Shown here in pieces: positions 40,487-41,682 of a stretch of DNA of 64,000 nucleotides. Made by a program: the position numbers. The number at the start of each line of letters is the position of its first letter. Position 1 is the stretch's first letter. Source of the DNA: the human T2T-CHM13v2.0 reference genome, Homo sapiens; the NCBI GenBank assembly GCA_009914755.4, contig CP068257.2, forward strand, positions 20,736,001-20,800,000. Direction: 5' to 3'.

Positions 40487-40523
<37 letters not shown>

Positions 40524-41682
40524 TGTGTGTGTGTATATTTTATATACACACAACATATGATCTCTGTTGCATATTTATCTTTCTTTTCGTTTTTATGCTA
40601 TATAACCCTTTGTAAATGTAAAAACCATTCTCAGTTCTTAGGCTATACAAAACCAGGCTGCAGACTGAATGTACTTTACAGACTCTAGTTTGCCAACCCC
40701 TATAAAAATTAACAGTCATTTTAATCCACATTTCTAGATACCTCAATTTAGCTCAAAAAAGAAAGGCCAGTCGCTTCCTTATCATAAATACATATACATA
40801 TGTTTTGTATGTATACATATACGTATATTTATGAAAGGAAGCAACTGGCCTTTCTTTTACATATATGAAAATACATACATATACATGTAAATACATACAT
40901 ATATGTATGCATTTATATGTGTATATATACGCATTATGTGCATATATAGTATATATAACCTTGTTATAACAATGTAATATAAATATTATATGTGTATTAT
41001 ATATTTATTAAAACAAATGTATGTATTTATGTGTGTATATATATAAAGTGTATAGCCTCCTTATTATATGTATATATTTATTTATTTATAATAATGAGGC
41101 TACTGGCCTTTCTTTGTTGAGCTAACCTGAGGAAACTAAAAATATGGATTAAAATTACTGTTAATTTTTATAGGGGTTGGCAAACTATAGTCCATAAAGT
41201 ACATTCAGTCTGTAACGTGATTTTGTATAGCCTAAGAAATGAGCATGGTTTTTACATTTACAAAGGGTTATAAAGTGTAAAAACAAAAAGAAATACAAAT
41301 GTGCAACAGAGAATGTAAGTCCTGTAAATCTTAAAATATTTATTCCTTAGTTGTTTGCAAAAAGAGCTTGCCAACTCGTCTCATAGGAAATAATAAAAAT
41401 AATATATTATTATTTTCACATAAAAATTAGAAAAAAGCCTGAAGATTTAATGGGGCACAATTTTGATTTTATAGTAGGCATAATATTGAGATTTACTTTA
41501 ATATTTTATTTTATTTAATGTCCAGGATACATGTGCAGGACGTGCTGATTAGATTTTTGCCAGTGAAGAGTGACAGTAAGTTATTCAGAACTTTTGGTGC
41601 TCTATATAATAGTATGCGTAGGCTGGGCACGGTGGCTCATGCCTGTAATCCGGCACTTTGGGAGGCCGAAGCGGGCGGATCA

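What the first reader, a model, noticed from the sequence alone, without database searches (positions are those of the whole stretch)
40487..41400. Palindromic inverted duplication of about 750 bp built on a hAT-like MITE terminus plus its flank, around an AT-rich hairpin-prone centre
- **Arms.** 40561-40778 and 41099-41315 are reverse complements of each other at roughly 90% identity.
- **What is duplicated.** Each arm holds the terminal portion of a MER30-like palindromic MITE ('...agtttgccaacccct' / 'aggggttggcaaact...') and about 80 bp of non-repeat flank ('ataaaaattaacagtcattttaatccacatttctagatacctcaatttagctc...'). Because the flank is copied in inverted orientation too, this is a true inverted duplication, not just two MITE insertions.
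- **Spacer.** About 320 bp, 40779-41098, of (TATG)/(TACA)-like low complexity. It contains a further 18-bp inverted copy at 40837-40854 ('ggaagcaactggcctttc') of the left arm's end at 40761-40778.
- **Left boundary.** A (TA)n(TG)n microsatellite.

AT-rich palindromes of this size can extrude as cruciforms. They are known hotspots for rearrangement and for deletion in bacterial clones.
Basis: seen in the sequence. Interest (0 to 1): 0.55.

Follow-up and report, generated by a model that had tools for sequence, protein, structure and literature searches.

The report
Old inverted duplication of MITE plus flank
A ~260-bp piece of primate junk DNA (part of an ancient hAT-type MITE plus ~93 bp of its unique flank) was copied in reverse orientation next to itself tens of millions of years ago; the two copies are now ~13% diverged and 282 bp apart, so this is a real but ordinary decayed quasi-palindrome, not a likely cruciform hotspot.

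Summary
Arms 40535/40562-40795 and 41078-41312/41339 are reverse complements: 87% identity over a 234-nt core, with BLAST E=1e-53 for the MITE part and 4e-22 for the flank.

I built a family profile from 42 independent copies found in host-contaminated metagenome contigs. It shows that the right arm holds a full-length 224-bp hAT-type MITE (41171-41380). From memory this is MER5-type, not MER30. The left arm holds only model positions ~62-224 (40554-40702). In both arms the family match stops exactly at the ...CCCCT terminus. The next ~93 bp, which is single-copy wherever I could search, is also inverted-duplicated at the same identity (Fisher p=0.43). The arms share 42 derived changes against 11 and 13 private ones. 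So one already-decayed insertion plus its flank was duplicated in inverted orientation, roughly 30-70 My ago.

The most likely mechanism is replication template switching or fold-back. This is inferred, not shown.

The 282-bp AT-rich spacer has no symmetry beyond its composition. It does contain two small nested hairpins; the stronger one is 40757-40858.

Published spacer and divergence rules place the large arms outside the cruciform-extrusion regime. There is no Rfam family and no coding potential.

Verdict: real, explained and ordinary, with low interest.

The parts
40487..40534 (.). (TA)n(TG)n microsatellite abutting or overwriting the outer end of the left arm
   Evidence: TRF finds (AT)19 at 40487-40524, and the sequence shows the (TG)n. 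There is no detectable homology to the right arm further left (shuffle control).
40535..40702 (+). Left arm, MITE part: a 5'-truncated copy of the hAT-type (MER5-like) MITE. The solid match is model positions 62-223 at 40554-40701. Position 40702 is the shared mutated terminal base. 40535-40553 is a weak, possible continuation.
   Evidence: nhmmer with the empirical family profile gives E=3e-5. It is 88.6% identical to the reverse complement of 41172-41312.
40703..40795 (+). Left arm, flank part: an inverted copy of the unique sequence that adjoins the right-hand MITE
   Evidence: 85.1% identity to the reverse complement of 41078-41170, BLAST E=4e-22. It lies outside the family profile. There are no other copies in the window or in 165 kb of host contigs.
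40757..40858 (.). Nested young quasi-palindrome: the left-arm inner end (40757-40790) and its short inverted copy M (40825-40858) around a TA-rich loop
   Evidence: 24 nt at 96%. DNA hairpin dG -31.6 kcal/mol, z=-11.95. M is closer to L (22/23) than to R (20/23).
40796..41077 (.). AT-rich low-complexity spacer (14-25% GC), not symmetric
   Evidence: Composition and short arrays. The symmetry test gives observed 20 against a null of 19.9 +/- 4.8.
41053..41102 (.). Small hairpin formed by the right-arm inner end (41079-41102) and an adjacent inverted copy M' (41053-41076)
   Evidence: 24 nt at 83%. DNA hairpin dG -8.4, z=-3.97.
41078..41170 (-). Right arm, flank part: the unique sequence adjoining the MITE, and the inferred parental copy
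   Evidence: Same evidence as for 40703-40795.
41171..41380 (-). Full-length hAT-type (MER5-like) MITE with both termini. Only 41171-41312 (possibly to 41339) is represented in the left arm.
   Evidence: nhmmer model positions 4-223 of 224 at 41377-41172, E=9.7e-9. Termini AGGGGTTGGCAAACT (41172-41186) and AGCTTGCCAACTCGTC (41365-41380) are read from the sequence.

Best explanation
An ancient, neutral, local inverted duplication.

A hAT-superfamily MITE of the MER5 type inserted at 41171-41380 long ago and decayed in place. Much later, roughly 30-70 My ago and so within primate evolution, a segment of about 260 bp was copied in reverse-complement orientation a few hundred bp upstream. That segment comprised the MITE's first ~140-170 bp plus ~93 bp of adjoining unique sequence (41078-41339). 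The copy is the left arm (40535-40795).

The most likely mechanism is a replication error: the nascent strand switched to the complementary strand, or folded back, in an AT-rich hairpin-prone stretch and then returned. This is the larger-scale relative of the short template-switch mutations documented in primate genomes.

The same process, or conversion within hairpins, later added the short nested inverted copies M (40825-40858) and M' (41053-41076). Microsatellite growth shaped the spacer and the left boundary.

Today the structure is a decayed quasi-palindrome: 87% arms and a 282-bp asymmetric spacer. I expect it to be structurally inert in duplex DNA, and there is no sign of an encoded product.

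Shown: the inverted duplication, its content, its boundaries and its relative timing. Inferred: the polarity (right is the parent), the absolute age, and the template-switch mechanism.
For: - Arms are real and far beyond chance.
- An empirical family profile from 42 independent copies has sharp ends at CAGGGG/CCCCTG. It matches the right arm full-length and the left arm from position 62, and in both it stops at the terminus.
- Homology continues ~93 nt into single-copy flank at statistically the same identity (88.6% vs 85.1%, Fisher p=0.43).
- There are 42 shared derived differences against 11 and 13 private ones, plus shared deletions and a shared mutated terminal base. So duplication came after most of the element's decay, and after transposon activity.
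- K2P is 0.141 over 234 nt.
- Only the right copy has the complete element, which gives the polarity.
- M is nearer to L than to R, so there were further, later short inverted copying events at the same spot.
- Template switching is documented to create inverted repeats and hairpins in one step in primate genomes (PMC5453318; PMC10710096).
- No Rfam family reaches threshold. No ORF in the region has a Pfam match.
Against: - No orthologous or outgroup sequence could be examined. The junction 24-mer is absent from the metagenome and prokaryote genome collections. The ancestral single-copy state, the date and the order of events are therefore inferred only.
- Documented template-switch mutations are mostly tens of bp, and this copy is ~260 bp.
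- The junctions lie in low-complexity DNA, so no microhomology signature can be read.
- The left copy may once have been complete and lost its outer ~40-60 bp to the microsatellite. That would remove the polarity argument.
- The count of shared derived changes depends on a consensus built from copies selected by one motif, so it may be biased towards one subfamily. The arms are only ~56-61% identical to it.
Confidence: 0.8

Rival explanations
1. Two independent insertions of the MITE in opposite orientation; the inverted repeat is just MITE against MITE.
For: MITEs of this family are abundant. An independent copy lies only 1.2 kb away at 42673-42509.
Against: Homology runs ~93 nt beyond the family terminus into single-copy DNA. 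The arms are 88.6% identical to each other but only ~48-57% identical to the independent copy and ~56% to the consensus. They share 42 derived changes and shared deletions.
Confidence: 0.01
2. Assembly or cloning artefact: a fold-back chimera creating a false second arm.
For: Palindromes are known to be troublesome in clones and assemblies (PMC4057610 abstract). I found no independent assembly of the locus.
Against: An artefactual fold-back would give identical arms. Here there are 30 substitutions and an indel in 234 nt. There is also a 282-bp non-symmetric spacer and different outer contexts: a full against a truncated element.
Confidence: 0.02
3. Both arms are copies of a younger composite repeat family (a MITE fragment plus captured sequence) that happened to land head-to-head.
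For: 87% arm identity would fit two members of a family ~6-7% diverged from its consensus. No repeat library (Repbase/Dfam) was available to exclude this.
Against: There is no other copy of the flank in the 64-kb window or in 165 kb of human-derived contigs, although that is weak power. The right copy continues as a complete MITE with its own second terminus, so the unit boundary is not that of a composite element. Two insertions 282 bp apart in mirror orientation would be a coincidence.
Confidence: 0.04
4. Transposase-mediated origin: aberrant hAT transposition (reversed-ends or sister-chromatid type, or flank hairpin processing) generated the inverted duplication while the family was active.
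For: The duplicated unit ends include a hAT terminus. From established knowledge of Ac/Ds and Hermes, hAT transposases make hairpins on flanking DNA, and alternative transposition can produce inverted duplications.
Against: Most of the element's divergence from the family consensus is shared by both arms (42 against 11 and 13). So the copy was made from an already-decayed element, probably long after family activity. The MITE terminus lies in the interior of each arm and is not a breakpoint of the duplication. Flank-hairpin opening yields only a few palindromic nucleotides, not 93 (knowledge).
Confidence: 0.04
5. A currently active PATRR-like fragile palindrome that extrudes a cruciform and drives rearrangement or deletion.
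For: Total size is ~800 bp with an AT-rich centre (14-25% GC). The ssDNA fold is very stable (dG -218, z -28.5). The inner 102-bp quasi-palindrome is well paired (z -12). In long ssDNA, inverted repeats with at least 75% identity and kb-scale spacers can still interact (PMC10164571).
Against: PATRRs that extrude are near-perfect and centrally symmetric. A 9-bp spacer plus 4 mismatches abolishes extrusion and instability (PMC1851657). Here the spacer is 282 bp without symmetry and the arms are 87% identical. Changing the spacer from 12 to 100 bp lowers recombination ~300-fold. The accumulation of ~13% divergence shows that the structure has persisted for tens of My.
Confidence: 0.05
6. A hairpin-RNA gene: a miRNA-like precursor at 40757-40858, or a long dsRNA substrate for editing or siRNA.
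For: Sub-threshold Rfam hits to several miRNA families fall on the inner hairpin (best 40.1 bits). Template-switch hairpins have occasionally become primate miRNAs (PMC10710096).
Against: All hits score less than half the gathering score, lie on both strands and involve many unrelated TA/CA-rich families. That is generic hairpin shape, and there are no hits at gathering. Only 18 miRNA genes arose from more than 6,000 suitable hairpins. There is no expression evidence.
Confidence: 0.03

Closest known systems
Template-switch mutations / replication-based inverted duplications (Ripley quasi-palindrome model; four-point model of Loytynoja & Goldman 2017, PMC5453318; larger-scale FoSTeS/MMBIR)
   Same: A nearby segment is re-copied in reverse complement in one step, which creates an inverted repeat or hairpin. 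The nested copies M (34 nt, 34 nt away) and M' fit the documented size and distance range.
   Different: The main arms (~260 bp) are about ten-fold longer than typical short-range events. No ancestral state is available, and no microhomology can be read at the junctions.
Palindromic AT-rich repeats (PATRR11/17/22/8) at recurrent translocation breakpoints
   Same: Several hundred bp of inverted-repeat architecture with an AT-rich centre, in human-type DNA.
   Different: PATRRs are nearly perfect and centrally symmetric with no spacer (PMC1851657). This structure has 87% arms, a 282-bp non-symmetric spacer and arms made of a MITE plus flank. It resembles, at most, a long-dead or asymmetric, stabilised version.
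Closely spaced inverted Alu pairs (Alu-IRs)
   Same: ~300-bp diverged inverted repeats separated by a spacer. Two such pairs lie in this window. The same stability rules apply (spacer, divergence).
   Different: Alu pairs arise by two independent insertions, so their homology stops at the element ends. Here unique flank is duplicated too, which proves a duplication event.
MER5-type non-autonomous hAT (Charlie) MITEs
   Same: The arms contain one full and one partial copy of a 224-bp element with CAGGGG...CCCCTG termini. MER5 is classed as hAT (PMC5753468).
   Different: The palindrome is not the MITE's own TIR structure.

Membership tests
MER5-type hAT MITE (empirical 224-bp family built from 42 copies) | Full-length similarity to the family profile | tested here: met
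   Right arm: model positions 4-223 of 224, E=9.7e-9. Left arm: model positions 62-223, E=3e-5.
MER5-type hAT MITE (empirical 224-bp family built from 42 copies) | Terminal inverted repeats CAGGGGTYGGCAAACT / AGTTTGCYRACCCCTG at both ends | tested here: met
   41171-41186 tAGGGGTTGGCAAACT and 41365-41380 AGCTTGCCAACTCGTC (12/16 to consensus), read. A stand-alone pairwise TIR alignment is not above shuffles, so this feature rests on the profile.
MER5-type hAT MITE (empirical 224-bp family built from 42 copies) | 8-bp target-site duplication typical of hAT | tested here: inconclusive
   AATTTTTA (41163-41170) against TCATAGGA (41381-41388): 2/8 identical. Erosion is expected for so old an insertion.
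MER5-type hAT MITE (empirical 224-bp family built from 42 copies) | Identity with the Repbase/Dfam entry named MER5A/B | not testable with these tools
   No repeat library was available. My recalled consensus aligns end to end (score 143 against a shuffle maximum of 83), and the recalled motif retrieved 61 dispersed copies.
   No library was available. From memory, MER30 begins CAGGGGTGTCCAATC, which differs from AGGGGTTGGCAAACT. The MER5-type profile fits full-length.
PATRR (palindromic AT-rich repeat) | Nearly perfect palindrome with central symmetry and no spacer | tested here: not met
   87% arms, and a 282-bp spacer without symmetry beyond composition. Criterion taken from PMC1851657.
PATRR (palindromic AT-rich repeat) | AT-rich centre | tested here: met
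   GC is 14-25% across 40800-41100.
PATRR (palindromic AT-rich repeat) | Size polymorphism and translocation or deletion breakpoints at the centre | not testable with these tools
   No human population or reference assemblies were accessible.
Template-switch mutation product | A segment is the reverse complement of a nearby segment on the same molecule | tested here: met
   Main arms. M and M'.
Template-switch mutation product | Ancestral or outgroup sequence lacks the inverted copy (a single-step change) | not testable with these tools
   No orthologous sequences could be found.
Any Rfam miRNA or other RNA family | Score at or above the family gathering threshold | tested here: not met
   0 hits at gathering over the whole window. 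The best sub-threshold hit is 40.1 bits against a gathering score of 84.

The most novel reading that the evidence does not exclude
Two possibilities remain open. First, the locus may be a still-evolving palindrome centre, with the recent 96%-identical nested hairpin at 40757-40858 marking ongoing template switching. It could then be length-polymorphic in humans. Second, if it lies in a transcribed intron, it may yield a long hairpin RNA (an ADAR or Dicer substrate) or a lineage-specific miRNA-like precursor. Neither possibility is excluded by my data, because no population, comparative or expression data could be consulted.
Probability: 0.06. Interest if true: 0.35.

Novelty: new member of a known kind. 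Interest (0 to 1): 0.12.

Why it matters
It matters little beyond annotation. The locus is a clean, datable example of a few-hundred-bp inverted duplication in primate DNA. The embedded MITE acts as a built-in marker for both polarity (full against truncated copy) and relative timing (shared against private decay). Younger nested template-switch-like copies sit at the same spot. That makes it a possible teaching or benchmark case for template-switch detection tools at the upper end of their size range. It also reminds annotators that head-to-head MITE fragments in RepeatMasker output can hide a real duplication. It does not meet the criteria of a fragile palindrome.

Tried and rejected
- **Independent assembly.** I searched for an independent assembly or orthologue of the locus with the 24-mer MITE/flank junction, which is identical in both arms. 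There were 0 hits in metagenome contigs and in genome contigs.
- **MER5 motif in prokaryotic genomes.** 0 hits. In metagenomes it gave 61 host-derived contigs, which I used to build the profile.
- **Stand-alone TIR test of the right element.** Not above shuffles (score 13 against a mean of 11.6). I dropped it in favour of the profile.
- **Left arm continuing under or past the microsatellite.** No signal (score 11 against a null of 12.2).
- **Hidden symmetry of the spacer.** None.
- **CATA/TATG stretch 40862-40942 as a hairpin.** No better than shuffles (z=-0.37).
- **Rfam.** Nothing at gathering. E-value mode gave only generic hairpin look-alikes.
- **ORFs in and around the locus.** No Pfam match for the 111-aa ORF at 40353-40688, which runs through microsatellite and MITE. 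I treat it as spurious.
- **hmmalign-based L vs R identity (78.6%).** I rejected this as a measure because the two arms were placed in different registers in a gap region. The direct pairwise value (88.6%) is used instead.
- **Locus identification.** Not achievable with these tools. The only clue is a MAPK6-like pseudogene 17 kb away.

Full report
**Setting.** The window is primate-type DNA. It holds 18 Alu-like segments and has 28-39% GC. An Alu lies at 41622-41915, immediately right of the finding. No repeat library or primate genome was available, so family and locus statements rest on profiles I built here and on cited papers. Names recalled from memory are marked as such.

- The repeat finder reports one long inverted pair, 40538-40801 / 41072-41335, 264 nt at 84% without gaps.
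- Gapped alignment gives a solid core, 40562-40795 against the reverse complement of 41078-41312. This is 204/234 identical (87.2%) with one gap column. There is a weak possible extension to 40535/41339.
- In-window BLAST gives E=1e-53 for the MITE part and E=4e-22 for the flank part. Neither part has any other copy in the 64 kb.
- The terminus AGGGGTTGGCAAACT occurs exactly twice, once in each arm on opposite strands. The chance expectation is 0.12.
- Across the whole window only three inverted pairs of at least 100 nt lie within 3 kb of each other. The other two are ordinary Alu-Alu pairs.
- The left microsatellite, (AT)19 then (TG)n at 40487-40534, and the AT-rich low-complexity spacer (14-25% GC) are as described.
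- The internal short inverted copy is real and longer than stated: 40835-40858 against 40757-40780, 24 nt at 96%.

**2. What is duplicated?** I needed the true end of the MITE.
- The junction 24-mer found nothing in the public collections.
- A CpG-free internal motif that I recall from MER5A retrieved 61 host-derived metagenome contigs.
- 42 copies with full context gave an empirical 224-bp consensus, CAGGGGTTGGCAAACT...AGTTTGCTAACCCCTG. Column conservation collapses to background immediately outside those ends.
- An nhmmer search of the window with this profile found three things: the right arm as a full-length element (model 4-223 at 41377-41172, E=1e-8); the left arm as a 5'-truncated copy (model 62-223 at 40554-40701, E=3e-5); and an unrelated third copy at 42673-42509 (E=7e-19).
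- In both arms the family match stops at ...CCCCT, yet arm-to-arm homology continues for ~93 nt (40703-40795 / 41078-41170).
- That flank has no other copy in the window or in 165 kb of human-derived contigs, whereas the MITE part hits 12 times there.
- Identity is 88.6% in the MITE part and 85.1% in the flank, which is not significantly different (Fisher p=0.43). One event therefore copied both.
- Over the shared part of the element the arms share 42 differences from the family consensus, against 11 and 13 private ones. They also share deletions and the mutated terminal base.
- The arms are ~56% identical to the consensus and 48-57% identical to the neighbouring independent copy, but 88.6% identical to each other.

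Two independent insertions are therefore excluded. The label 'MER30-like' is not: the element fits the MER5-type family. MER5 is classed as hAT (PMC5753468). The mapping of my empirical family to that Repbase name is from memory.

**3. Polarity and age.**
- Only the right copy has the complete element with both termini (41171-41380). The left copy lacks roughly the first 40-60 model positions, where the microsatellite now sits. No homology is detectable further left.
- The parsimonious reading is that the right side is parental and the left arm is the derived, partial, inverted copy. The caveat is that microsatellite growth could have erased a once-complete end.
- K2P distance between the arms is 0.141 over 234 nt, with a standard error of about 0.03.
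- With commonly used primate neutral rates of 1-2.2e-9 per site per year (general knowledge), this gives roughly 30-70 My. Gene conversion between the arms would make it older.
- The ratio of shared to private changes independently places the duplication late in the element's residence. This argues against a transposase-mediated origin.

**4. The centre.**
- The 282-bp spacer (40796-41077) shows no symmetry beyond what its TA/CA/TG composition gives: observed 20 against a null of 19.9 +/- 4.8.
- The inner end of each arm has its own short inverted partner. L-end 40757-40790 pairs with M 40825-40858 (hairpin dG -31.6 kcal/mol, z=-12). R-end 41079-41102 pairs with M' 41053-41076 (dG -8.4, z=-4).
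- M differs from L at 1 of 23 positions. M and L each differ from R at 3 of 23. So M was copied from, or converted by, L after most of the L/R divergence.
- These nested copies have the size and spacing of the short template-switch mutations shown to create inverted repeats and hairpins in one step in primate genomes (PMC5453318; PMC10710096).
- The order of events cannot be resolved without outgroups (note 4).

**5. Mechanism.** I infer that a replication template switch or fold-back in an AT-rich, hairpin-prone stretch copied ~260 bp in reverse complement. Later short switches and microsatellite dynamics then remodelled the centre and the left edge. This step is inference. The junctions lie in low-complexity DNA, and no ancestral state could be examined.

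**6. Is it a cruciform or rearrangement hotspot?** The evidence says no for the large arms.
- As single-stranded DNA the 796 nt fold into one long hairpin (dG -218 kcal/mol, z=-28.5). That is true of any inverted repeat.
- Extrusion from duplex DNA depends on central symmetry. PATRR22 with a 9-bp spacer and four central mismatches neither extrudes nor destabilises clones in wild-type E. coli (PMC1851657).
- For Alu inverted repeats, a spacer change from 12 to 20 bp lowers recombination ~40-fold and a change from 12 to 100 bp ~300-fold. Divergence reduces it exponentially (PMC10164571).
- Here the spacer is 282 bp and divergence is 13%. The accumulated divergence itself shows long persistence.
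- One caveat remains. In long single-stranded tracts, inverted repeats with at least 75% identity and kb-scale spacers can still anneal. The 102-bp inner quasi-palindrome is also fairly well paired. A low residual risk therefore cannot be excluded.

**7. Function.**
- No Rfam family reaches threshold.
- The sub-threshold hits are generic miRNA-shaped matches on both strands, at less than half the gathering score.
- ORFs in the region are short or run through repeats, without Pfam matches.
- I conclude there is no encoded function.

**8. Verdict.** It is an old, decayed inverted duplication whose embedded MITE conveniently records polarity and timing. Novelty: a new member of a known kind. Interest: low.

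Noticed in passing
window 58338-58754 (-): A 138-aa ORF ~85% identical to human MAPK6/ERK3 residues 143-278 (PDB 6yky_A, E=1.5e-72; Pfam Pkinase E=1e-20). Catalytic motifs are mutated (RDLKPAN->RYLKPTN, DFGLAR->DFCLAQ), and stops surround the ORF in that frame. This is most likely a MAPK6 processed pseudogene.
   Followed up: partly
window 42673-42509 (-) and 42162-42113 (-): An independent MER5-type MITE (model 1-183, E=7e-19) whose probable tail (model 170-219, E=0.15) lies 346 bp away. The element appears split by a later insertion at 42163-42508 that looks like a MaLR/MLT1-type LTR fragment from memory.
   Followed up: partly
window 26745-27036 / 27633-27911 and 52621-52917 / 54238-54369: Two inverted Alu-Alu pairs with spacers of ~0.6-1.3 kb. 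These are the only other long inverted repeats within 3 kb in the window. There are 18 Alu-like segments in all.
   Followed up: yes
window 40200-40460: The sequence left of the microsatellite resembles the 3' end of a MaLR (MLT1-type) LTR, recognised from memory only. The left arm and microsatellite start ~25 bp after it.
   Followed up: no
window 41934-41995: A compound (CA)n/(GA)n-type microsatellite directly after the poly-A tail of the Alu at 41622-41915.
   Followed up: no
window 33321-33815 (-): A 164-aa ORF with a weak, sub-threshold Pfam hit to the GCM motif (E=0.006, 16.9 bits against a cut-off of 25). It overlaps an Alu-like segment (33479-33747), so it is probably spurious.
   Followed up: no
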